A stretch of DNA of 64,000 nt, taken from the IMG/VR virus record IMGVR_UViG_3300032280_000442, positions 64,001 through 128,000 of that record; one strand, written 5' to 3'. A model generated the notes under the pieces. It was not told the DNA's origin. It saw only the letters and a program-made list of their open reading frames with translations, and searched no databases. Below, piece by piece: positions 513 to 60,311 of this stretch (position 1 is the stretch's first letter; every line of letters starts with the position of its first letter). The DNA comes from a virus (Duplodnaviria > Caudoviricetes). The translations under genes were made by a program, and so were the position numbers.

Positions 513-833
513 TTACTGACATTGTTTATCGTAAAAATTCCTAAGATAATATCCAAAATTATGTACCATAAAATTATATAAATCATCTTTAGTTTTATTA
601 TCGACATCTTCACTAGTACTTTGATAAAAATCATCAATAAGGTCTTGAACCATCATATCACAAATATCACTAATGAAATTACCTACACTATCGTATTCAC
701 AAGCATTATTATTTTCTAAAATTGAAAATTCCAAATGGTTTTTAATTACATTATAATCATATCTTCTACGAAATGCAATTGGTATATTCTCCATCAATAA
801 ATCTTCCTGTCTCTCAGTAATTATTATTTTCAT
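513..833 (-). CDS. hypothetical protein with MKIIITE leader
   Basis: ORF in tightly packed operon. Confidence 0.85.
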   Translation of the reverse strand: MKIIITERQEDLLMENIPIAFRRRYDYNVIKNHLEFSILENNNACEYDSVGNFISDICDMMVQDLIDDFYQSTSEDVDNKTKDDLYNFMVHNFGYYLRNFYDKQCQ

Positions 834-840
834 TTAGACG

Positions 841-1161
841 TTATAAATAAATTTTAGTTATATAAATTTTCGCATTAGGAATCCATTGCTCAATACTATA
901 TTCAATCATTGGTAAAATTATTTCAAAATCTTCTCTATCTGTATTTAAATAAAGATTAACATTAACACTAATACCATCAGTTATTTTTATTTCATCAACA
1001 ACAATCTTTTCAACGGAACCAACCTCATTAATTTCATCCATTTCACCCAAACCCCACTCTTCATCAGCCTCTTGACGTAAGTTATTTAACTCATCATCAA
1101 GAATTTCTTGTACTAAAGTTTTTATTTGTCCAACTTTACTTTCTGTAATTATTATTTTCAT
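841..1161 (-). CDS. hypothetical protein with MKIIITE leader
   Basis: ORF; ATGA overlap with upstream gene. Confidence 0.85.
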   Translation of the reverse strand: MKIIITESKVGQIKTLVQEILDDELNNLRQEADEEWGLGEMDEINEVGSVEKIVVDEIKITDGISVNVNLYLNTDREDFEIILPMIEYSIEQWIPNAKIYITKIYL

Positions 1162-4225: not shown

Positions 4226-5356
4226 TTATTTTATTTTTTTACTAATAGTCAGGATTCTATCTGTTGGTGAATAAACTGGTGGTTCAGGACTTTCCCAATA
4301 TCTACGACCCTGTATTATTTTATAATTACGGTATATTGGTCCATTTGATATTAAGATATAATCTGACTTATACGACAATTTAGGTGGTCTATTCCTATGT
4401 GAAAATGGAATATAATATTTACCATCTAAAGTATAGATTCCATTATTTTTAGCATTTACCGGTTGAAAAATTATTTTTTTCCCTTCATTCTCAACCACAA
4501 TTATTTCAGAATAATCGGTTTTTGTTGACGGACAAAAATTTTGAACAACTCTTGAATTAGGTAAGAATTTTTGAATATACGGTTCATAATTACTTTTAGA
4601 CATAAAAGTTGGTTTATAACTAATATTTTTAAGTAAAGTATTTAAAAATTCACCTTTAAATAACATTTCTCTTTTATCGTACACCCATTGAACAAAATCG
4701 TTATGTTCAAAAGTTTTCATTTGTTTAATATACGATTTAATAATTAAACTTATTGGGTCGTTTTCAAATATAACATAATTAAGTTTTGACCAACTAACAC
4801 CATTTTCATTAATAGAATTTGGTAGTGGATAAATATTTAAAAATCCTTCGGTTTTATCACAATATTTTGAATCATAAACACCATAATTATCACCATAGAT
4901 TTCTTTTAATGATTTTTCAATAACATTACGAAGGTCTTTACAGTAATTGTTATCACAATAACCTTTGTTAGACCTATAAACTTTTGAACGTTCATAAAAT
5001 AATCGTTCAGTTTCTTTCTCAGATAACTTACCAATATGTCGTTCAAACTTTTCATCAAAATTAATATTATATTTTCTTCTAATATCTGATAAATTCATAT
5101 AAAAATTTGAATTACCTGATTTTTGAACCAAATCTGCATCAAATATATATTCCTTCCCTGTTGTAATATCTGTGAATATAAACATTTCAGTTTCCGGATT
5201 TTTTTCAAATCGTCCCGTTGACTTAAATTGGACCATATAAATTCCAAACTGAGGTAATAAATGAGGTTCACTAAACCCATTAAAATCAATACTCTGAGTT
5301 TGTTCCTCAATCTCCTTTAATATTCTATACTGTTCTTCTGTTATAATAATTTTCAT
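4226..5356 (-). CDS. hypothetical 376-aa protein with MKIIITEEQY leader
   Basis: long ORF; TATTTAT at 5361-5367. Confidence 0.9.
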   Translation of the reverse strand: MKIIITEEQYRILKEIEEQTQSIDFNGFSEPHLLPQFGIYMVQFKSTGRFEKNPETEMFIFTDITTGKEYIFDADLVQKSGNSNFYMNLSDIRRKYNINFDEKFERHIGKLSEKETERLFYERSKVYRSNKGYCDNNYCKDLRNVIEKSLKEIYGDNYGVYDSKYCDKTEGFLNIYPLPNSINENGVSWSKLNYVIFENDPISLIIKSYIKQMKTFEHNDFVQWVYDKREMLFKGEFLNTLLKNISYKPTFMSKSNYEPYIQKFLPNSRVVQNFCPSTKTDYSEIIVVENEGKKIIFQPVNAKNNGIYTLDGKYYIPFSHRNRPPKLSYKSDYILISNGPIYRNYKIIQGRRYWESPEPPVYSPTDRILTISKKIK

Positions 5357-5360
5357 ATAT

Positions 5361-5435
5361 ATAAATATACACCAACATCAAAAAAAGGGGGCGGGGGGAT
5401 TTGAGAACGACCGAAGGGAGTCCGGACGGGGAAAG
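5361..5435. repeat. dispersed repeat A, copy 2 (partial)
   Basis: aaaagggggcggggggatttgagaacgaccgaagggagtccgg. Confidence 0.85.
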
Positions 5436-7143: not shown

Positions 7144-7169
7144 AATATACATTTATAAATAAATATATA

Positions 7170-9464: not shown

Positions 9465-10049
9465 TTAGTATTTTTGTGTAATATATTGTGATATAAACTC
9501 TTTGATTACATCCCATTTTTCATCAGGTAATTCACTATACACAAAATAATCCCCGTGTAAATCTTCATCAACCAAACTAATTAGTTTATCTAAATATTTT
9601 TGTTTTGTTTCATAATATTCGGGATGTAAGTGTTTGATAAATTTGTTAATGGATTTATCTATTAGGTACGTTCTCCGTCTTATGTCATTTAAGTTCATTA
9701 AGAACGATGACTCTTCCCTTAATATTCTTCTTATGGATTCTTGTAAGTTCATATTTGTAAGTTCATCATACTTTTTAATTATTCTTTCCCCGAATATTTC
9801 TTGTATAAACTTATATAAACCTTCTTCCGGTATAGGTGAATCTTCCACCCACCCATCGGTTAATTGCACAAGTATTTCCTCAGTAATTGAACTCACAACA
9901 ATAACCATAAATTTATTCGATGACATATTGGCATAATGTTTGAAGTTCCTTGATTGATTATTTAATTTTTGGTTAAAAATACTCTCAAGTTCATCAATAC
10001 TATATCTTCTTAAGATATATCTCTTTATGTTATTCTTTTGTAAGTTCAT
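9465..10049 (-). CDS. hypothetical two-module protein with N-terminal MNLQ and internal MNLQESIRRILREE leader
   Basis: ORF translation. Confidence 0.85.
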   Translation of the reverse strand: MNLQKNNIKRYILRRYSIDELESIFNQKLNNQSRNFKHYANMSSNKFMVIVVSSITEEILVQLTDGWVEDSPIPEEGLYKFIQEIFGERIIKKYDELTNMNLQESIRRILREESSFLMNLNDIRRRTYLIDKSINKFIKHLHPEYYETKQKYLDKLISLVDEDLHGDYFVYSELPDEKWDVIKEFISQYITQKY

Positions 10050-13133: not shown

Positions 13134-13541
13134 TTAATTAATATGTTTGAATACTTTTCTAATGTGTTTCGGTAATGAATTTATTGGTATTACCTTTGCT
13201 TTGATTGTTTCTAATCCTTGTCTTGCAGCTTTCTGAGCTCTGTGGTGTCCGTCTATAATTGTTATGAATTTACCATCATCGTTAACAAAGATTAGTATTG
13301 GGTATTGTAAATCAGCACTTTCTATCTTTCTAACCTCATCTTCATCCCCATCCCACGATAGTAAATGTGGCTTTAATTCTTCTACTGAGATATTTTTTAC
13401 CGGAATGTTTTCTGTAGCATTTAATAAATCCATAAGGGTGATTTTATCCCCCTCATTATTTTGCCAAGATGTGTCGTGTAATCCTTCATTGATTACCCCC
13501 ATCATCTGTTTAATTCTATGTATGTTTTCTTGTAAGTTCAT
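13134..13541 (-). CDS. ParB/Srx N-terminal-like domain protein with MNLQ leader
   Basis: ADLQYPILI...IIDGHHRAQKA. Confidence 0.8.
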   Translation of the reverse strand: MNLQENIHRIKQMMGVINEGLHDTSWQNNEGDKITLMDLLNATENIPVKNISVEELKPHLLSWDGDEDEVRKIESADLQYPILIFVNDDGKFITIIDGHHRAQKAARQGLETIKAKVIPINSLPKHIRKVFKHIN

Positions 13542-14697: not shown

Positions 14698-15470
14698 TAC
14701 TTATCTTCAGGTAATTTAGTATCTTTGATAAATTTCTTGTGTGAATCCTTATACGATTTTTGGGTTTCATCGTTCACATCTTTGGTGTATTGCCAATTCC
14801 AATACAAGTCATTGTTTGGTTTGAATCCATAAAACTTATGAACATCTTTCTGTATTTCAGTTACATTCTCACCGTTCCAATTCTGTCCAACACAAATGAA
14901 TCCGGTCTCAATATCTTTAACAAGATTTGATTCACCCAATGTTGTATGTCTGTTCTCAATCCAAGTCAATCTCTCAATTAAGTTTTGGTAGAACATATTG
15001 GTTTGTCCCCATCTTATGGAACTAAAGAATATAACTGCGTCAGATTCAAATAACTCTTTGGATATCTTCCATAACTCATCCTTTGGATTGTTATAACTTG
15101 CCCAACATCTATGGTCTCCGGATGGATTCTTTTTCTTATCTTTGAGCATTGCTTTAAGTAACCCACAACTGTTACCGTCTTTTCTTGATACATTTCCTTC
15201 ACAAGGAACGATATTAAGTTCAGAGACATCAATAAGTACTGAAGTATCTTTTAACTCATCGTTAAGATACATTGCAATCATCTTTGATTTTGGTATGTCA
15301 AGGTTTTTTTCATCCCAATTATATCTATTGGAACAACTTAAGATTAGAACCTTTTTCTTTTCTTTAAGAATATCTAATGTTTTCTTAATTGATTTCCACG
15401 CATCTGATTGGACCATCTCTTCCGAAATCATCATTTCTCTTATTCTTTGTATATTTTCTTGTAAGTTCAT
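14697..15470 (-). CDS. flavodoxin-like / NADPH-dependent FMN reductase family protein with MNLQ leader
   Basis: VLILSCSNR, LNIVPCEGN, ESDAVIFFSSIRWG, NLIERL. Confidence 0.8.
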   Translation of the reverse strand: MNLQENIQRIREMMISEEMVQSDAWKSIKKTLDILKEKKKVLILSCSNRYNWDEKNLDIPKSKMIAMYLNDELKDTSVLIDVSELNIVPCEGNVSRKDGNSCGLLKAMLKDKKKNPSGDHRCWASYNNPKDELWKISKELFESDAVIFFSSIRWGQTNMFYQNLIERLTWIENRHTTLGESNLVKDIETGFICVGQNWNGENVTEIQKDVHKFYGFKPNNDLYWNWQYTKDVNDETQKSYKDSHKKFIKDTKLPEDK

Positions 15471-16069
15471 TATTTTGTTTTTTTAACACAATTAGGGTAT
15501 TTCTTACCAAACATTGTCTTCATACCTTTTTGAGTATATCCCGCCCAACATTTTTCCGTAAGTTCCTCCTCCTTCATTTCATTTTTTTTATGTTTACCAT
15601 CACAATGAGCTTTCTGACTAAATCCTTTTGGGTTATTACAGTTAATAGATTTTTTGTACTTTTCTGACCACTTTTCCGTAAACTCACCTTCTTTCATTTC
15701 TTGAGTTTTCTTTTTTGATTCTTCTTTTTTAGATTCAATATACTCAAATGCAGTTCTTAATCTTTTTTTAACTTCAGGGTCTTTTGCTCTTTCTAACGCA
15801 ACTCTCAATCTTTGATGTATAAGATTAATGATTTGTGATTGTCTGGCGTGTGATTTTGATTTGAAACTTTCTTTATTCAAAGTATCAACAATATCTTGTT
15901 TTGTTTTAAACTTAACGGAAACCGTATCATTTGGATTTTCATCGGTATATAACCTTCTATCCGAACCTTCAGGTTTTTTACCAGTCCCAACCTTTAGGTC
16001 ACTCTCATTAATCACTCTTTTAACTAATGAAATAAGTTCTGATTCTGTTAGTCTTATTATTTTTTTCAT
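15470..16069 (-). CDS. modular basic protein with leader and three modules joined by E-[FL]-T-E sites
   Basis: VINE|SDLKVGTG..., EFTE|KWSEKYKKSINC..., ELTE|KCWAGY...PNCVK. Confidence 0.85.
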   Translation of the reverse strand: MKKIIRLTESELISLVKRVINESDLKVGTGKKPEGSDRRLYTDENPNDTVSVKFKTKQDIVDTLNKESFKSKSHARQSQIINLIHQRLRVALERAKDPEVKKRLRTAFEYIESKKEESKKKTQEMKEGEFTEKWSEKYKKSINCNNPKGFSQKAHCDGKHKKNEMKEEELTEKCWAGYTQKGMKTMFGKKYPNCVKKTK

Positions 16070-16070
16070 A

Positions 16071-16472
16071 TTACCTATTATATGGTCTAAACCTTGCTGG
16101 GTTTGCTTTTATTGCCGACTTTGGAAATCTTAATCCAACTCCCTGTTGTCTTGCATTTTTTAATGTTCTTGCGTATTCTGTTAATTCTTCACTATCAATA
16201 TTATCAATAGATTTTACTAATTTATGACATTTATCAGATACACCACCCTTTTCGTGGTCGGTTATGGATATTTTTACTTTATCATAATTTATTTCAATGT
16301 CCGGATGATGGTTTTGTGTTTCAGCAATTTTCGCAATTTTATTAACAAAATCAATAGCATCATTAAAATCTTTGAATTTGAAAGTTCTTTCTAATTTTTT
16401 ATTAGAATTAACCCAATTTTTTGATTCAAACATCATTTCTTTAATCCTTTGTATATCTTCTTGTAAGTTCAT
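16071..16472 (-). CDS. pterin-4-alpha-carbinolamine dehydratase (PhhB/PCD-like) with MNLQ leader and basic C-terminal module
   Basis: LERTFKFKDF..A..FVN.IA..AE.QNHHPDI...THEKGGVS pattern. Confidence 0.9.
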   Translation of the reverse strand: MNLQEDIQRIKEMMFESKNWVNSNKKLERTFKFKDFNDAIDFVNKIAKIAETQNHHPDIEINYDKVKISITDHEKGGVSDKCHKLVKSIDNIDSEELTEYARTLKNARQQGVGLRFPKSAIKANPARFRPYNR

Positions 16473-16475
16473 AAC

Positions 16476-16520
16476 TATAAATATATTGTTTGGTGGAATA
16501 GTTTTAATTTTGTATCTTTG
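16476..16520. promoter_or_regulatory. back-to-back promoters: TATTTATA (- strand, 16476-16483) and TTTG-N20-TATCTTTG (+ strand, 16489-16520)
   Basis: direct motif match in a divergent intergenic gap. Confidence 0.75.
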
Positions 16521-17346: not shown

Positions 17347-17373
17347 AAAAAATGTCCGTTATTACGGACATTT
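17347..17373. terminator. bidirectional terminator
   Basis: aaatgtccgt-tatt-acggacattt. Confidence 0.8.
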
Positions 17374-17701
17374 AATCATAATCACCAATTAAATTAACTT
17401 CTTCAGGTTCTATTCTTAATCTATCTTTAAACCACCAACTAATAATACTCTCAAGTTCTTCATCACTAAATGAGAACAATCTTAGTGGTTCCCACATACC
17501 TTTATTAACTTCCAATAAATCATATTTTTCTGACCACCACATCAAAATGTTATCACTTTCATCTCTGAATATTATTTGTTGATTACTAAATACAGAATCT
17601 TTATTTAAATCAATATACTCACGAGTTAATTTACTCAAGATATCGTCTAATATCTTGTAGGATAATTGGTATCTTTTATTTTCTGTTATTAATATTTTCA
17701 T
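17372..17701 (-). CDS. hypothetical protein with MKILITENK leader
   Basis: ORF in coupled operon. Confidence 0.85.
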   Translation of the reverse strand: MKILITENKRYQLSYKILDDILSKLTREYIDLNKDSVFSNQQIIFRDESDNILMWWSEKYDLLEVNKGMWEPLRLFSFSDEELESIISWWFKDRLRIEPEEVNLIGDYD

Positions 17702-18027
17702 AACTCATTATCTATCCACAGCTCAGAATATCTCACTATTTTATCAGTTAATTCCTCATAACATATCCCTATCATTTCCTCAAATTCTTCTTTAGATGAA
17801 ACAAAAGTTCTTAAACTCATAAAGTAATCCGGATATATAATTAATTGACCATTACTTGGTCTATATAACAATCCTGTAACCGCATTATCATCATATACCT
17901 CATCATAGTAGATATAAATAATACTTGTACCACCACCCATTCTTGTTGGAGTTAATTTATTAAACAGGGTTTTAAACTCTGTTCTAAATAACATATCTCT
18001 TTTATTTTCTGTGATTACAATTCTCAT
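17698..18027 (-). CDS. hypothetical protein with MRIVITENK leader
   Basis: ORF. Confidence 0.85.
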   Translation of the reverse strand: MRIVITENKRDMLFRTEFKTLFNKLTPTRMGGGTSIIYIYYDEVYDDNAVTGLLYRPSNGQLIIYPDYFMSLRTFVSSKEEFEEMIGICYEELTDKIVRYSELWIDNEL

Positions 18028-18029
18028 AC

Positions 18030-18329
18030 TTACATCATTTTATATTCAATACCCCAATGTGAACCTGACATATCAATATCTAAACCAAACATACGATTAA
18101 CATCAGCTCTAATTTCTCTTAATGTACGTGTTGGACTATTCTGCATCTCACCACCTTTAAACCCAACATTAATGATGTTTCTATTTATTGTTCTTCGCTC
18201 ACTTTTATCACCACTTGCTAAATAAACATCCTTTGTTGTAAATGTTACATTTTTAACTACATCATAACCATTGAGGATATAGTCCTCAATTAACTTATTA
18301 TACTTACTTTCTGTTATTAATACTTTCAT
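18030..18329 (-). CDS. hypothetical protein with MKVLITESK leader
   Basis: ORF. Confidence 0.85.
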   Translation of the reverse strand: MKVLITESKYNKLIEDYILNGYDVVKNVTFTTKDVYLASGDKSERRTINRNIINVGFKGGEMQNSPTRTLREIRADVNRMFGLDIDMSGSHWGIEYKMM

Positions 18330-18721
18330 TATATGTAATCTGTTGTAAATTGAGTAACTTCTAATCCGGTATTATCTTCAAACCATTTTTTGAATATTGG
18401 TTTCCATATGTCACCAAAAGTAGAATCTAATCTTTTAGCGACAACAGGATAAACAGATAGTAAAGGACATTTATAATTGTGTAGATAACCGTAACCTGCA
18501 AAAAATTCATCTTCCGGACCAGCGTTTGCATTACATCCATAATAAATGTAAGATTCTTGGTCATCAACAAAGAAAACAATATCACCCCACTTATCAACCT
18601 CATCTTGATAACCAATATCTGATTTACTATTACCTTTCCACCCATAATCAGGATAATATAAATCATCCAAATAATCGATAACGACTTTCTCTAATCTACT
18701 CTCAGTTATTACTACTTTCAT
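18329..18721 (-). CDS. hypothetical protein with MKVVITESR leader
   Basis: TAATG coupling. Confidence 0.85.
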   Translation of the reverse strand: MKVVITESRLEKVVIDYLDDLYYPDYGWKGNSKSDIGYQDEVDKWGDIVFFVDDQESYIYYGCNANAGPEDEFFAGYGYLHNYKCPLLSVYPVVAKRLDSTFGDIWKPIFKKWFEDNTGLEVTQFTTDYI

Positions 18722-23073: not shown

Positions 23074-23279
23074 ATCTATAAATATAACATAAGGGCAAAA
23101 GTTACCCCCGTCTTTTGAACGAGGGTGATAATTACTTTCCTTTTTTCTTAATTAGTTCTTTAACAAATTCTTGAAGTTCAAATAATTCAGGGTCAGTTTC
23201 TAAAATATAACGAGATTTCATATCATTATAGTTCTCTCGGATATCTGATATACACCATCCGAAGAACTCAAATAATAAT

Positions 23280-26437: not shown

Positions 26438-26496
26438 ACCTATAAATATACCGGAATTAAATTATTGGTATGGATATTTATTGTTAAATATTAATT

Positions 26497-30953: not shown

Positions 30954-31318
30954 TACGAAAAATCAACATCAAGACAAACATTTGGAAACCACATTTCAAT
31001 CTCATCAAGGATTGAATCTTTAATGTCATCCTCTACCCAACTTGGCAAATCTGAAACATATTTCAAATAATCCCAATCACCCTCAAAACCAACCTTTATT
31101 TCAATTGGTTCAAGATATATGGTTCCACTATATTTACACCTTTGATATTTTTCGGTCTCCCAAAGAGCAACTTTACCAATTGTATAAATTACAGACCAAT
31201 CAGCATATTCATCATCGGCAGATGAATACGGCATACTATATTGACCTTCCTTAGTTATAACCTCATCAAATAATTTGATAATGTTTTTTTTAATTGATTC
31301 TATTTTTCTATCTTCCAT
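30950..31318 (-). CDS. hypothetical protein
   Basis: ORF. Confidence 0.8.
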   Translation of the reverse strand: MEDRKIESIKKNIIKLFDEVITKEGQYSMPYSSADDEYADWSVIYTIGKVALWETEKYQRCKYSGTIYLEPIEIKVGFEGDWDYLKYVSDLPSWVEDDIKDSILDEIEMWFPNVCLDVDFSY

Positions 31319-32352
31319 TATACATAGTCAGGAAAAAATTCATTTATATATTTGTCAACTAAACTATAATCAGGGTAATCCGGAATTCTAAAATCAAGCC
31401 AAGGTTCATCACCATTGTCCATAAACGTATTCATCATATTTAACCAAGTAGTTACATAATCAAGGTTATTGGCATAATACCCCCAATTACCACTATCCGC
31501 AACATATTTGCTAATAGAATTAAAAACCTCACCCGGATTAAATTTTAACGAATAATGTTCAACGAGTTTTTCAGGATTATAACTTGAAGGAATTGAGACC
31601 CACTTAGCACTTTTCATATCAAAGAATGTTTCTAACTCATTTTCAACAGCTCGATATATTTCGGTTTCATACGCACTATTATAAGCATTTGAGTGAATAC
31701 CATATAAGTCACCCGATAAATCCCCTAAATAATCATTATCAATTAAATACATAAACGATTCCTCATTCCCAATTATATCACCAACATTCTCAGGCGTTAA
31801 ATAAAAAATACCATCTTCAGAATAATTGTTAAATAAATCAGGTGTCTCATCATCAATCTCAATTTTCCAATTGGTTAATACATCTAATATATGTTTTTTT
31901 AACAATTCAATATTTGCAGGATTTAATTCTTCAATAACATCTCTATATACATCATCGGTTGTGTTACCCCATCTATCCCACACATCATCTTCACCTAACA
32001 CCATTTTGGCAACATCTCTGGCAGAAGTGTCACGACCACCACTATAAAATAACTCAGCTAAATCCTCTCTATCTTTAATTTCTAAATAATACCCATCATC
32101 TTTTATTGTTATATCATCCAATTTAGAAATACAAACTCTAAGTGTTTCTTTATCGTTTAAAACATTTAAAAGATAATTTAATATCTCCAATTGATAATCA
32201 CTTAAGTTATCATCAAAAGGGTCAATATCATTTAATATATTTTGTTTTTGGAAGAAGGTAAGTATTTGTTCCATACTACCAAATATTTTTAGTAAATCGT
32301 CAAATTCACCATTATTAAATTCGTCTATGTATTCTTGTAAATGTGGTTTCAT
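31318..32352 (-). CDS. acidic hypothetical protein
   Basis: long ORF. Confidence 0.85.
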   Translation of the reverse strand: MKPHLQEYIDEFNNGEFDDLLKIFGSMEQILTFFQKQNILNDIDPFDDNLSDYQLEILNYLLNVLNDKETLRVCISKLDDITIKDDGYYLEIKDREDLAELFYSGGRDTSARDVAKMVLGEDDVWDRWGNTTDDVYRDVIEELNPANIELLKKHILDVLTNWKIEIDDETPDLFNNYSEDGIFYLTPENVGDIIGNEESFMYLIDNDYLGDLSGDLYGIHSNAYNSAYETEIYRAVENELETFFDMKSAKWVSIPSSYNPEKLVEHYSLKFNPGEVFNSISKYVADSGNWGYYANNLDYVTTWLNMMNTFMDNGDEPWLDFRIPDYPDYSLVDKYINEFFPDYV

Positions 32353-32354
32353 AA

Positions 32355-32873
32355 TTATTGTTGACTTATGTATTCTGAATCAAAAATTATTTTAATTCCT
32401 GTTTTTGATGTTATGTTCTCTTTAAAATAATCGTTTATACCCCACTGAACCTCGTCACTAACTTCCCATCCGTAATCGTCATCATTTAACGCATCTTCTA
32501 ATGTTCTATTCTCACCATTTGAAACGGTAACTGTTCCCGACAAGTCATTAACTTTTACACTAACAACTACATTTGGTTTCTTTTCATCCAATTCCCAATA
32601 ATCAATGTCATCCACCTCAAAGAAGAAATCGTATCCTCCATACTCATCTATATGATGGGGATTCTGAAGTAATAAGGTTTTAGCAAGTTCTTTAGATTCT
32701 TCCTCTCCTCTCCACTCAATTAAGTATTTGTAGGCTTCATCGTAACTAGTAATACCCTCTCTATTATCCAACTTAAACATATTGATAAATTGATTGTCAA
32801 TTTCACCCCCAAACTTATCAAAGTATTTGAATATAAAGTTCTTATATTTAGATTCCGTTATTATTAATTTCAT
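32355..32873 (-). CDS. hypothetical protein with MKLIITESK leader
   Basis: ORF. Confidence 0.85.
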   Translation of the reverse strand: MKLIITESKYKNFIFKYFDKFGGEIDNQFINMFKLDNREGITSYDEAYKYLIEWRGEEESKELAKTLLLQNPHHIDEYGGYDFFFEVDDIDYWELDEKKPNVVVSVKVNDLSGTVTVSNGENRTLEDALNDDDYGWEVSDEVQWGINDYFKENITSKTGIKIIFDSEYISQQ

Positions 32874-45107: not shown

Positions 45108-46469
45108 TTAATTAATTCTCATTATGTAATAAGTCTCACCGGCAACATTAATACTATCGTAATTACCGTCATAACTATTCATAATACCCCAACCATCAGA
45201 GTCAACTAACCCTTGAGCTAAAGCGTCTTCATCTATATATTCCTTGAAGTCTAAACCATAGTTTCTAAGATAATCTAATGGGTCTCTTTTTACATCTCTA
45301 ACCAACTCATAAACTTTATTTTCAATCATATCTTCGGTTGGTTCAGTATCAACTTCAATACTATCTAATTCTTCTTGGAGAGCTTCTATCTGATTATCTA
45401 AATCTTCTTCGTAGTCATAATAATTGTCATCATCTGAATCCAATTCAAGTTTTTGTTGTTCTAAATCTTCTATTTGTGACTCAATTTGTTCTATTCTTTC
45501 TTCTTGTTCCGAAGTCAATTCATAATCATCATCATTAAAATAACTATCAGGGTTCTCTCTTACTTCATAATCATAATCTTCTTCTGCCATTCTAACAATT
45601 GCATCAACATCCAAATAATCTTCAATAAATGATTCACTAAATCCATCAGCACCCACATCATCAATATAAGACACTGCATATTGTAATGCCGCAGCATCCA
45701 TTTCTTCTTCAGTTCCAACAGTATATTCTCTATCTCTGAAACCAGATATTAAAACCTCAAATTGTTGTAAACCATAATGAGTATATCTTGATGCGTACAT
45801 CATATAAACATCCGCATTATTCTCTTCTAATTCTTCAATTTCTGTTTGTGTTTCATCAATAGTTTCTTGTAATTCATATGCTCTCTCGTCATTATCATCA
45901 AGTCCCTCATACTCTTGTTCCAAATCTTGAAGTTTACGTCTCAAAATTGTTAATTTTTCAATATCCTCATCCGATAATGGTTCAATCTCACCATTATTAA
46001 CTAAATTGTCAAATAATGCGTGAGCTTTCTCTCCGGTCTCATCTCCCTGTTCTAAAGCCCATTCGTCACTATCACGAAGAGATTCTTGTTCACCAAGTTT
46101 AGCATTTAGTTCTTGTTTCTCTCTAATTCTTTCGCGAGGAGAACCACCATCAGAAATATATTTTTTAACTTGTAAACCACCTAAGTCACCCACTTTAGTA
46201 TTACGAATATCTAATGAACCATCAATATAAGCTATTGGCCCAATATCTTTAACATCCTTACCACCCAAATCTAAATCTCCGGTAATGTATAATGGTTTAC
46301 CACCATATTGTTTCATTTTTCTAAAAACATTACCATTATAACTGGCATATCTCATCACATCCAAATAATCCTCAGGAGATATTCTATAATATTCGTCCTC
46401 AGTTTCTTTGATGATTTTCTTAATTACATTATATAATTCGGATTCTGTAAGTCTCAATTTTCTACTCAT
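45108..46469 (-). CDS. acidic coiled-coil protein with MSRKLRLTESEL leader (start 46469)
   Basis: GDLDL/GSLDI short repeat; two acidic coiled coils. Confidence 0.85.
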   Translation of the reverse strand: MSRKLRLTESELYNVIKKIIKETEDEYYRISPEDYLDVMRYASYNGNVFRKMKQYGGKPLYITGDLDLGGKDVKDIGPIAYIDGSLDIRNTKVGDLGGLQVKKYISDGGSPRERIREKQELNAKLGEQESLRDSDEWALEQGDETGEKAHALFDNLVNNGEIEPLSDEDIEKLTILRRKLQDLEQEYEGLDDNDERAYELQETIDETQTEIEELEENNADVYMMYASRYTHYGLQQFEVLISGFRDREYTVGTEEEMDAAALQYAVSYIDDVGADGFSESFIEDYLDVDAIVRMAEEDYDYEVRENPDSYFNDDDYELTSEQEERIEQIESQIEDLEQQKLELDSDDDNYYDYEEDLDNQIEALQEELDSIEVDTEPTEDMIENKVYELVRDVKRDPLDYLRNYGLDFKEYIDEDALAQGLVDSDGWGIMNSYDGNYDSINVAGETYYIMRIN

Positions 46470-59015: not shown

Positions 59016-60311
59016 TTATTGAGTTTTTTGATTGTACCCCATTAAAGATTTTATTCTTTCAAACTCTTCGTTAATTTGTTTTGTTTTTTTATCTTCAATA
59101 GACTCTAATTTAATGTTTACACCTTTACCTTTTTCAGTCCCACTTTTTTCGTTAAAAACAGGTTGAGGTACTCTATTATAAGATTGGTCTTTTAATTTTT
59201 TAAGTGTATTTTTCTTTCTTAATTTATTAAATCTATCATTTGTTTTAGACTCTAAAGCATTCCCACCCGGTGCGTTACCCGTTTTTGAATCTCCTTTATA
59301 TAATTTTTCCATCCAATCTTCATTAAATTCAATAGCATCAGGTGTTGGTAAATTTAGACCTGCAATTTCATAATTAAAATCTTCTAAATCATCTGTCATT
59401 TGAAAAGCCTTTTTATCCATTTTCTCTAATTCACCATTACCTACCGGAAATATTTTTGGATTCATTTCATATTCACCTTTAGAACCATCTTTAAGGTAAT
59501 CTTTCATTTTTTTGGTAACATCCTTAATATAATCATTATTCTCTTTACCAGAACCGTTGTGAGCTTTTTTATAAACCTCTAAACCTCTTGGAGAACCACC
59601 CATACCTTTAATGTTATTTTTTTCCGCAGGGTCTTTAACAATTTTATTTTTTTGGTCTTTAACAATTTTCTCAATCAAACGAATCATTTCACTTTCAGTC
59701 AATCTATAAGACTCTTTAACAGAATATTTTTTACCATCAACCTCAAAAGAATCTTTACCTTCTTTTTTTGCCTTAGCTAAAGCTCCCGAAAATGCGTTAC
59801 CTTCTTGAGTTTCTTGTTCTTCCATACCGTGTTTTACAGATTTTTTCACACTTTTTTCTTTACGTAAAAGTTTAAAGTCTTCAGAATCAATCTTATTGTT
59901 TTTGTTTCTATCCAATCTTTTTTGACGGCCTTTTAACGCCTCATTAATGTTAACACCTTGACACATTTCTTTAGTAACAGGGTCTTCCTTACCAAAATTT
60001 TCTATATGGTATTTACAAGTTTTTTCTTTGTCTTCGTCAGTATCCTCAACATCAACTTCAATGTCGTCAATATATTCATTCTCACCAACGTAGTCGAATT
60101 CACCGTTAATATCCCCTTCATCGTGAATATCTTCTTCCATTTGACCACCACTATAACCACATTCATTACATTCACCTTCATACATAGTTCCACCACATTC
60201 GCATACATCACCTTTAATTTTAGAAACAAGACTATCTGCCTTTTCTTCTAAAGTTTCTTTTAGAATTTTAGATACTAAATTATCTAAATAAGTTGTATTT
60301 AATTTTTTCAT
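59016..60311 (-). CDS. modular protein with many [ILV]xE sites; candidate head core/internal protein
   Basis: ILKE leader, internal RLTESEMIRLIEKIV, C-terminal INEEFERIKSLMGY; EF-hand-like DRNKNNKIDSEDF. Confidence 0.75.
   Translation of the reverse strand: MKKLNTTYLDNLVSKILKETLEEKADSLVSKIKGDVCECGGTMYEGECNECGYSGGQMEEDIHDEGDINGEFDYVGENEYIDDIEVDVEDTDEDKEKTCKYHIENFGKEDPVTKEMCQGVNINEALKGRQKRLDRNKNNKIDSEDFKLLRKEKSVKKSVKHGMEEQETQEGNAFSGALAKAKKEGKDSFEVDGKKYSVKESYRLTESEMIRLIEKIVKDQKNKIVKDPAEKNNIKGMGGSPRGLEVYKKAHNGSGKENNDYIKDVTKKMKDYLKDGSKGEYEMNPKIFPVGNGELEKMDKKAFQMTDDLEDFNYEIAGLNLPTPDAIEFNEDWMEKLYKGDSKTGNAPGGNALESKTNDRFNKLRKKNTLKKLKDQSYNRVPQPVFNEKSGTEKGKGVNIKLESIEDKKTKQINEEFERIKSLMGYNQKTQ

What the first reader, a model, noticed from the sequence alone, without database searches (positions are those of the whole stretch)
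15470..16472. Polyproteins of tiny modules joined by the same E-(L/F)-T-E site
Seen: 15470..16069 reads leader-VINE | domain | EMKEGEFTE | KWSEKYKKSINC..HC | EMKEEELTE | KCWAGY..PNCVK. 16071..16472 reads leader | pterin dehydratase | SEELTE | 34-aa basic peptide. Inference: internal protease sites release 25-35-aa Cys/basic peptides inside the head, so single genes would encode multi-peptide payloads.
Basis: partly seen in the sequence, partly recalled or inferred. Interest (0 to 1): 0.7.

Follow-up and report, generated by a model that had tools for sequence, protein, structure and literature searches.

The report
Leader-tagged modular head-cargo polyproteins
Two neighbouring genes of a 308-kb marine T4-related phage encode strings of small basic modules joined by the tripeptide sites that T4's head protease is known to cut, so they are probably capsid-packaged precursors chopped into small peptides, though no cleavage has been shown.

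Summary
On the minus strand, 15470..16069 reads leader – 100-aa domain A – EMKEGEFTE – module B – EMKEEELTE – module C. 16071..16472 reads leader – pterin dehydratase – SEELTE – 34-aa basic tail.

- **Protease context:** the genome encodes a T4-type head module with a Peptidase_S77 protease. In T4 this protease is proven to cut at LTE (gp23, Alt C-terminus EELTE) and ITE (Alt, IPI).
- **Relatives:** across more than 100 related proteins and 80 viral contigs the modules are added, dropped and reordered. Every module stays preceded by hydrophobic–x–Glu: P1 Glu is invariant and P2 is free.
- **Selection:** synonymous variation shows it acts on the peptide, not on DNA identity.
- **Mini-genes:** many encode only leader + spacer + ELTE + the 27-aa module C.
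- **Cyanophage versions:** they start with T4-like targeting sequences, and one (S-CREM2 ORF160) was found in virions by mass spectrometry.

Cleavage and packaging of these two proteins remain untested, and one junction is modelled inside a helix. I read this as a new variant of the T4 internal-protein system (confidence 0.6). First-stage readers noted similar patterns in other genomes; those notes are unchecked.

The parts
16004..16069 (-). Leader family L1 (residues 1-22, MKKIIRLTESELISLVKRVINE); predicted propeptide ending in I-N-E
   Evidence: The same leader heads 6 ORFs of the genome and dozens of metagenomic relatives. AF2 models a helix at 9-22. It ends in the same INE as the predicted MCP maturation site SFLINE|A.
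15701..16003 (-). Module A (residues 23-123, DPKVGTGKKP..LYTDENP..SHARQSQ..), a helical basic domain
   Evidence: Near-invariant in 31 relatives. It stands alone, without leader or junction, as gp40 of pelagiphage HTVC033P, which lacks an S77 protease. It is also present in the P-TIM68 protein encoded next to the MCP gene.
15674..15700 (-). Junction 1, EMKEGEFTE (residues 124-132); predicted cleavage after Glu132
   Evidence: This is where relatives insert or delete module B or a ParB-like domain. Variants are FTE, LEE, VTE, FGE and LSE, with Glu invariant.
15581..15673 (-). Module B (residues 133-163, KWSEKYKKSINCNNPKGFSQKAHCDGKHKKN), a two-Cys basic mini-module
   Evidence: Occurs in T4-like cyanophage proteins at 60-83% identity and in 14 distinct upstream contexts in IMG/VR. 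AF2 models helix-loop-helix at pLDDT 70-75.
15554..15580 (-). Junction 2, EMKEEELTE (residues 164-172); predicted cleavage after Glu172
   Evidence: E-[LI]-T-E precedes module C in about 45 distinct contexts. The amino acids are conserved while synonymous heterozygosity is 0.69/0.66/0.36. EELTE is identical to the proven T4 Alt C-terminal site.
15473..15553 (-). Module C (residues 173-199, KCWAGYTQKGMKTMFGKKYPNCVKKTK), a 27-aa peptide with net charge about +8 and two Cys
   Evidence: 100% amino-acid invariant at most positions in 47 unique DNAs despite synonymous change. It is the sole cargo of 42-72-aa leader-bearing mini-genes. It is also present in virion protein S-CREM2 ORF160.
16425..16472 (-). 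Leader family L2 (residues 1-16, MNLQEDIQRIKEMMFE)
   Evidence: The leader-coding DNA repeat has five copies in 12.6-16.5 kb. In PCD relatives the leader end is h-x-E|SK with variable P2/P3 (MFE, IVE, VNE, MNE, ITE, LKE).
16197..16424 (-). Pterin-4a-carbinolamine dehydratase domain (residues 17-92)
   Evidence: Pfam PF01329, E 8.2e-24, 84 bits against a cut-off of 26. The HHPD motif is present. AF2 core pLDDT is 76-86.
16176..16196 (-). Junction 3, DSEELTE (residues 93-99); predicted cleavage after Glu99
   Evidence: ELTE is invariant in 23 aligned relatives. It lies in a region of pLDDT below 50 just after the folded domain. In other proteins the same tail module is preceded by LDE, LGE or LEE.
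16074..16175 (-). Tail module T (residues 100-133, YARTLKNARQQGVGLRFPKSAIKANPARFRPYNR), net charge about +9
   Evidence: Almost invariant. It recurs in unrelated architectures in L028, L032, L035 and L052.
16476..16483 (-). Sense-strand TATTTATA, 3 nt upstream of the PCD start codon (promoter-like motif)
   Evidence: 34 copies in the window against 18.6 expected. The motif also lies upstream of the portal, protease and scaffold-like genes. It also lies upstream of the DNA polymerase gene, so it is not class-specific.

Best explanation
The two genes encode capsid-targeted precursor proteins of a T4-related jumbo phage. An N-terminal leader (family L1 or L2) would direct each protein into the scaffolding core of the prohead, as the capsid targeting sequence does for T4 internal proteins. 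The phage's gp21-like S77 protease would then cut after Glu in hydrophobic-x-Glu sites. These sites are VINE|S and MFE|S at the leader ends, and EFTE|K, ELTE|K and ELTE|Y at the junctions. Cutting would release domain A, the PCD domain and three small, strongly basic peptides: B (about 31 aa), C (27 aa) and T (34 aa). These would stay with the packaged DNA and enter the host with it. Because each unit works on its own after cleavage, modules can be shuffled freely between genes at the conserved leader and junction sequences. Shown here: the module grammar, the protease gene, the match to proven T4 sites, selection at the peptide level, and virion association of one cyanophage relative. Inferred: packaging, cleavage, and what the peptides do.
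For: (1) The genome has a T4-type head module. MCP hits PF07068 at 5.8e-74 and the protease hits PF03420 at 8.8e-24. The protease is 34% identical to T4 gp21, with the ELNHP, SSRG and Asp motifs aligned. There is also a portal. (2) T4 gp21 is proven to cut gp23 at FLTE|A, Alt at MELITE|L and EELTE|S, and IPI at TITE|A (PMC5694885; sequences). The MCP here aligns SFLINE|A to T4 SFLTE|A. (3) Among the 120 best relatives the architectures are L1-A-C (80), L1-A-B-C (17), A-ParB-C, A-ParB-B-C, L2-A-B-C, PCD-A-B-C and A-B-C-E. All indels lie exactly at the junctions. (4) In 80 IMG/VR loci, modules B, C and T are preceded by h-x-E in almost all distinct contexts, with P1 Glu invariant and P2 free (T, S, D, E, G, N, L, F). 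(5) The junction and module C are conserved as amino acids with synonymous heterozygosity of 0.2-0.7. (6) Mini-genes of 42-72 aa consist of leader + acidic spacer + ELTE + module C. One of them was seen on 69 contigs. (7) Cyanophage-type mosaics start with T4-like targeting sequences: L012 MKSFKQYLGE and P-TIM68 MMKSFIDFSE, against T4 MKTYQEFIAE / MKTFKEF. (8) S-CREM2 ORF160 carries modules F - NLEE|KKNCW (C) - ISE|GKKDAC (D) and was detected in CsCl-purified virions with 7 unique peptides (PMC10665884). (9) All 5 complete 270-333-kb relatives carry PF03420. The podophage HTVC033P has no S77 and holds module A as a bare stand-alone protein. (10) The PCD junction and tail are modelled as disordered, hence accessible.
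Against: There are no proteomic or biochemical data for this phage. AF2 puts junction 1 inside a long continuous helix (98-141, pLDDT 70-77), so it may be structural, although T4 scaffold and propeptide sites are also helical. The conserved EMKEGE stretch exceeds a three-residue site. h-x-E is common in this AT-rich proteome, and site presence alone does not predict cutting outside a prohead. About 44 of 399 ORFs carry leaders, including metabolic enzymes, which is far more cargo species than in T4. Leaders L1 and L2 do not resemble the T4 CTS in sequence. A few contexts lack a hydrophobic P3 (TNE, TSE, ATE). The Pfam PCD profile aligns from residue 9, so part of leader L2 may be the enzyme's own N-terminal helix. 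The shared promoter-like motif is not late-specific.
Confidence: 0.6

Rival explanations
1. These are ordinary uncleaved multi-domain proteins. The acidic EMKEGE-h-T-E stretch is a conserved helical linker or the first turn of each module. The basic mini-modules act in cis as nucleic-acid- or partner-binding tails attached to varied domains.
For: AF2 runs a single helix through junction 1. Conservation extends over 9 residues rather than 3. Module C sits as a C-terminal appendage on many unrelated domains. Module A works as a stand-alone protein in a phage without the protease.
Against: This does not explain why three unrelated modules (B, C, T) and several others (D, E, F, AEYQGRK) are all preceded by the same h-x-E, with free P2 and an invariant Glu. 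It does not explain mini-genes made only of leader + spacer + C. It does not explain the identity to proven T4 sites, nor why modules B and C occur, among cultured phages, only in T4-like myoviruses.
Confidence: 0.25
2. The leaders and junctions are mainly DNA-level recombination handles that let cassettes be swapped in frame, with no role in proteolysis or targeting.
For: The leader-coding DNA repeat has five copies at 68-100% identity in 4.6 kb. The two junctions in the 199-aa gene are 72% identical over 47 nt. Module indels fall exactly at these sequences.
Against: The junction codons L/I-T-E show high synonymous diversity (0.69, 0.66, 0.36) while the amino acids are fixed, so selection is on the peptide. 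Distant contexts keep only h-x-E with an otherwise unrelated upstream sequence. This rival is compatible with the best explanation as a secondary effect.
Confidence: 0.1
3. The small leader + Cys-peptide genes are RiPP-like precursors that are processed and exported or modified by dedicated enzymes unrelated to the head protease.
For: The leader-spacer-core layout and two conserved Cys per module resemble ribosomal natural-product precursors.
Against: No modifying enzyme, peptidase-transporter or other RiPP family was found in the neighbours. The same leaders head large enzymes. The modules are lysine-rich and occur inside large virion proteins.
Confidence: 0.03

Closest known systems
T4 internal proteins IPI, IPII, IPIII and Alt with their capsid targeting sequence, processed by gp21 (Mullaney and Black 1996; Repoila et al. 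1994; PMC9026906, PMC5694885, PMC12373910)
   Same: A short N-terminal leader is shared by otherwise unrelated, mostly basic proteins encoded in variable loci. The leader ends in (L/I)-x-E. An S77 protease is present. The sites ITE, LTE and EELTE are identical to proven ones. Alt is also trimmed at its C-terminal side.
   Different: There are about 44 leader-bearing ORFs in five leader families, against a handful in T4. The leaders are unlike MKTYQEFIAE. Internal sites would split one protein into several small units. The cargo includes enzymes such as PCD. Nothing has been shown experimentally.
T4 scaffold/core proteins gp22, gp67 and gp68, cut at many sites into small internal peptides
   Same: One precursor has multiple h-x-E sites, and the products are peptides that stay in or leave the head.
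   Different: T4 fragments are acidic scaffold debris without conserved modular identity. Here the fragments are basic, ultra-conserved, Cys-bearing modules that recur across genes.
Giant-phage (phiKZ, 201phi2-1, SPN3US) inner-body and ejection proteins processed after Glu
   Same: A large phage has many head proteins with propeptides cut C-terminal to Glu by a gp21-related protease.
   Different: Those phages use an S80 protease, an (S/A/G)-x-E motif and long propeptides (over 100 aa). There is no tiny-module polyprotein grammar.
Adenovirus core precursors pVII and pX (mu peptide) cut by the viral protease
   Same: Small, highly basic DNA-associated peptides are released inside the capsid by the maturation protease.
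   Different: The virus, the protease and the sequences are unrelated. This is an analogy only.

Membership tests
T4-type capsid-targeted internal proteins (CTS cargo processed by gp21) | The phage encodes a Peptidase_S77 prohead protease with His/Ser/Asp catalytic motifs | tested here: met
   PF03420 at 8.8e-24, 84.5 bits against a cut-off of 27. 34% identity to T4 gp21, with ELNHP, SSRG and Asp aligned.
T4-type capsid-targeted internal proteins (CTS cargo processed by gp21) | An N-terminal propeptide of roughly 6-20 residues ending in (L/I/V)-x-E | tested here: met
   The leaders end in ..RVINE|S (22 aa) and ..EMMFE|S (16 aa). Relatives keep h-x-E|S with variable P2. Compare T4 MELITE|, MKTYQEFIAE| and ..TITE|.
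T4-type capsid-targeted internal proteins (CTS cargo processed by gp21) | Sequence similarity of the leader to the T4 CTS (MKTYQEFIAE / MKTFKEF) | tested here: not met
   The window's leaders L1 and L2 are unlike the T4 CTS. Related mosaic proteins do resemble it: L012 MKSFKQYLGE and P-TIM68 MMKSFIDFSE.
T4-type capsid-targeted internal proteins (CTS cargo processed by gp21) | The same leader on otherwise unrelated proteins in variable loci | tested here: met
   44 of 399 ORFs fall in five leader families. Leaders are swapped on the same cargo in relatives (L1 or L2 before A-B-C).
T4-type capsid-targeted internal proteins (CTS cargo processed by gp21) | The protein is physically present in the capsid and ejected | not testable with these tools
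   The only evidence is indirect. S-CREM2 ORF160, which carries module C, was detected in purified virions (PMC10665884).
T4-type capsid-targeted internal proteins (CTS cargo processed by gp21) | Cleavage at the site by the prohead protease | not testable with these tools
   The sites equal proven T4 sites, but there are no data for this phage.
Pterin-4a-carbinolamine dehydratase (PCD/DCoH, PF01329) | A profile match above the curated cut-off and the HHP active-site motif | tested here: met
   E 8.2e-24, 84 bits against 26. NHHPD is invariant in relatives. AF2 core pLDDT is 76-86.
Viral polyprotein | Two or more independently functional units in one ORF, separated by sites of the virus's own protease and released by it | tested here: inconclusive
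   Independence of the units is supported by shuffling and stand-alone forms. The sites match the protease family's specificity. Release is untested.
RiPP precursor peptide | A dedicated modifying enzyme or leader peptidase/transporter encoded nearby | tested here: not met
   Neighbouring ORFs gave no such Pfam or PHROG families.

The most novel reading that the evidence does not exclude
A widespread class of marine T4-related phages uses the prohead protease to convert leader-tagged, freely shuffled polyproteins into a cocktail of ultra-conserved basic mini-peptides of 27-34 aa, each with one Cys pair. The peptides are packed with the DNA and injected, and they act on specific conserved host or DNA targets. 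This would be a peptide-payload system far larger and more modular than the T4 internal proteins.
Probability: 0.35. Interest if true: 0.8.

Novelty: new variant of a known kind. Interest (0 to 1): 0.66.

Why it matters
If the junctions are cut, one gene yields several independent capsid-packaged products. The unit of selection and exchange in these abundant ocean phages would then be a 25-100-residue module rather than a gene. The 199-aa protein alone has more than 5,400 relatives in metagenomes. The T4 internal-protein paradigm of injected anti-defence or DNA-binding cargo would extend to dozens of cargo species per phage, including enzymes. It would also explain why hundreds of unrelated marine phage proteins share the same leaders and tails. 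The 27-aa module C is invariant across 47 distinct DNA sequences, so it must contact something specific. The sites give exact, testable predictions for virion peptidomics.

Tried and rejected
- **Family searches for the modules:** Pfam, PHROGs, PDB sequence profiles and the ESM Atlas gave no family for modules A, B, C or T. The only hits were weak lysine-rich S20-like noise.
- **Helix N-cap idea for h-T-E:** not supported. The AF2 helix runs through junction 1, and P2 tolerates E, G, L and F.
- **Late-promoter argument:** sense-strand TATTTATA precedes the head genes and the PCD gene. It also lies upstream of the DNA polymerase gene and of small MGR.. genes, so it says nothing about timing.
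- **Pure DNA-repeat explanation of the junctions:** rejected by the codon analysis.
- **Window ORF 45108..46469:** it gave a weak phrog_530 'protease' hit. It is not the protease, since Pfam shows no peptidase domain. The real S77 gene is at genome 271066-271791.
- **Megablast to cultured phages:** no match.
- **S-SCSM2R virion proteome text:** it did not list the relevant ORF.
- **S-CREM2 supplement:** it holds no peptide-level data.
- **Script machine:** it was lost, so genome-wide background rates of h-x-E and sequence logos could not be computed. Later counts are by reading.

Full report
**Observation.**
The window is bases 64001-128000 of a single 308,574-bp viral contig with 31.5% GC. 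Both genes of the finding lie on the minus strand.
- ORF 15470..16069 (199 aa) reads: leader MKKIIRLTESELISLVKRVINE, a roughly 100-aa basic helical domain (A), EMKEGEFTE, module B (KWSEKYKKSINC..HC..), EMKEEELTE, module C (KCWAGYTQKGMKTMFGKKYPNCVKKTK).
- ORF 16071..16472 (133 aa) reads: leader MNLQEDIQRIKEMMFE, a pterin-4a-carbinolamine dehydratase domain (PF01329, E 8e-24), DSEELTE, and a 34-aa Arg/Lys-rich tail.
- As a DNA pattern, E-(L/F)-T-E occurs five times in the window against 0.99 expected. Three of the five hits are these in-frame junctions.

The description is therefore correct and not a chance pattern.

**What kind of phage.**
The genome has a T4-type head module at 267-275 kb.
- It holds a portal (phrog_213), a Peptidase_S77 protease (PF03420, 8.8e-24), a very acidic scaffold-like protein, and a Gp23-family major capsid protein (PF07068, 5.8e-74).
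- The protease is 34% identical to T4 gp21, with the ELNHP, SSRG and Asp motifs aligned.
- The nearest cultured capsid proteins are only 41-46% identical: Microcystis phage Mel-JY01 and Flavobacterium phage immuto.
- The capsid protein N-terminus aligns ..ASFLINE|ATGEG to T4 gp23 ..GSFLTE|AEIGG, the known gp23 maturation site.

**The sites are known T4 protease sites.**
PMC5694885 reports by mass spectrometry that gp21 removes six residues from Alt at ITE-6 and 63 C-terminal residues at LTE-619.
- I read these sites from the T4 record as MELITE|LF and ..MTTEELTE|SVIY.
- T4 IPI reads MKTFKEFTSTTTPVSTITE|A, and IPII/IPIII read MKTYQEFIAE|A.
- The window's EELTE is thus letter-for-letter the Alt C-terminal site. 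The commonest leader in this genome, MK(I/V)(I/V)ITE, mirrors Alt's MELITE.
- T4 core proteins gp67, gp68, gp21, gp22 and gp24 all begin with such short (L/I)-x-E peptides.

**Module grammar in relatives.**
The 199-aa protein has 5,421 database relatives.
- Among the best 120, identity within modules is 75-97%, yet the module content differs: leader1-A-C (80), leader1-A-B-C (17), A-ParB-C, A-ParB-B-C, leader2-A-B-C, a PCD-A-B-C fusion, and A-B-C-E.
- Every gain or loss falls exactly at the EMKEGE-h-x-E junction or at the leader end.
- In 80 IMG/VR loci, module C is preceded by E-(L/I)-T-E in about 45 distinct contexts. In more distant ones it is preceded by LNE, LDE, LGE or VDE, and twice by TSE.
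- Module B is preceded by LSE, VTE, LDE, FLE, IDE, VKE, VEE, LFE or ILE, with ATE and TNE as exceptions.
- The tail module is preceded by LTE, LDE, LGE or LEE in five architectures.
- Other modules in this genome's neighbouring gene, and in cyanophage proteins, follow the same rule: ITE|G, TNE|A, VNE|D, VNE|A, LFE|K, LTE|AEYQGRK.
- The pattern is an invariant Glu at P1, usually a hydrophobic residue at P3, and a free P2. That is the T4 logo.

**Peptide-level or DNA-level selection.**
In 47 unique DNA sequences, module C is 100% invariant at most residues, with synonymous heterozygosity of 0.2-0.6. The junction L/I-T-E is fixed with synonymous heterozygosity of 0.69, 0.66 and 0.36. Selection is therefore on the peptide. 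Leader-coding DNA is nevertheless repeated (five copies at 68-100% identity), so recombination at these sequences probably drives the shuffling as a secondary effect.

**Minimal units.**
Many small genes consist of a leader, a short acidic spacer, ELTE and module C only. Examples are 54 aa (MKKIIRLTESELISLVKRVMKESELTE|KCW..), 56-72 aa with the MNLQE leader, and one 65-aa form seen on 69 contigs. Others are leader-B-C of 94-105 aa. If uncleaved, these proteins would be little more than a leader attached to the 27-aa module. This favours the reading of the module as a released product.

**Link to virions.**
- Cyanophage-type mosaics begin with T4-like targeting sequences: L012 MKSFKQYLGE|, followed by modules F, B and C, and P-TIM68 MMKSFIDFSE|, encoded right after the capsid gene.
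- S-CREM2 ORF160 (MSSLSE.., modules F, NLEE|C, ISE|D) was detected in CsCl-purified virions with seven unique peptides (Table 3 of PMC10665884).
- All five complete 270-333-kb relatives carry the S77 protease.
- Pelagiphage HTVC033P has no S77 gene, and it carries module A as a bare 96-aa protein without leader or junction.

**Structure models.**
- AF2 on the 199-aa protein (mean pLDDT 65) gives a leader helix at 9-22, a disordered stretch at 20-51, and a helical domain A. Its last helix (98-141) continues through junction 1 into module B. Module C is modelled with low confidence.
- For the PCD protein the core is confident (pLDDT 76-86), and the junction plus tail score below 50.
- The models do not support a helix N-cap explanation. 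They neither prove nor exclude protease access at junction 1.

**Interpretation.**
The best reading (confidence 0.6) is a much expanded and modular version of the T4 internal-protein system. Leaders address proteins to the prohead core. The S77 protease removes the leaders and cuts the h-x-E junctions. Basic modules stay with the DNA and are ejected. What the modules do is unknown. Their charge suggests DNA binding, and the extreme conservation of module C suggests a specific partner.

The main rival (0.25) is that the proteins stay intact and the junctions are conserved linkers. Points against the best reading:
- There are no direct data for this phage.
- The number of leader-bearing ORFs is large: about 44 of 399, including enzymes.
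- The leaders are unlike the T4 CTS.
- The conserved stretch is longer than a minimal site.
- Pfam aligns the PCD profile from residue 9, so leader 2 may overlap the enzyme's own N-terminal helix.

**Literature and earlier notes.**
T-even internal proteins share only a packaging leader and are diverse injected anti-restriction proteins (PMC3012670; PMC9026906; PMC12373910). I found no paper describing module-by-module polyproteins of this kind. First-stage notes on other genomes describe the same leaders and junctions. They are unchecked and count only as leads.

Noticed in passing
whole genome; in the window e.g. 513..833, 841..1161, 4226..5356, 17372..18721, 32355..32873 (all minus strand): Five recurrent N-terminal leader families sit on about 44 of 399 ORFs. 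They are MK(I/V)(I/V)ITE (24)..RLTESEL..VINE (6), MNLQENI..MMGxI(N/K)E (6), MKELIKKILREE (4) and ..EEEKxRIL.. (4). Each contains h-x-E.
   Followed up: partly
window 59016..60311 (-) and 9465..10049 (-): Leader-like sequences also occur inside proteins: SYRLTESEMIRLIEKIVKD in the 431-aa protein and NMNLQESIRRILRE in the 194-aa protein. They may be fused former gene starts.
   Followed up: no
window, 34 sites, e.g. 5360-5367, 7154-7161, 16476-16483, 23077-23084, 26441-26448: Sense-strand TATTTATA lies 1-28 nt upstream of many start codons (34 sites against 18.6 expected). These include the head genes, but also the DNA polymerase gene. With a gap of only 1-4 nt it would imply leaderless or near-leaderless mRNAs.
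   Followed up: partly
window 13134..13541 (-): The cargo of this MNLQE-leader gene (GLHDTSWQN..DGHHRA, ParB-like) appears in relatives as an insert between module A and module C of the 199-aa protein family, as in P0032 and P0023.
   Followed up: partly
protein P0026 (metagenomic relative): In one relative the PCD gene and the 199-aa gene are fused into one 292-aa ORF. The basic tail is lost and an internal leader-like MVRVTKSDLVRIIKQSVSE is retained.
   Followed up: no
genome 63071-63646 (-), just left of the window: A 191-aa mosaic protein reads MKLIITE..GLITE| followed by modules D (SAYCNG), E (QQAAIAINMKKKG, DUF3008-like) and F (W..KWVD..C..PKC). It follows the same junction rule.
   Followed up: partly
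window 45108..46469 (-): A 453-aa extremely acidic protein carries an L1 leader (MSRKLRLTESELYNVIKKIIKE). It has a weak phrog_530 hit but no peptidase domain. It could be scaffold-like or a core component.
   Followed up: no
IMG/VR relative G004 (268,739 bp): This relative has two separate PF03420 protease matches, at 31291-31773 and 233494-233940.
   Followed up: no
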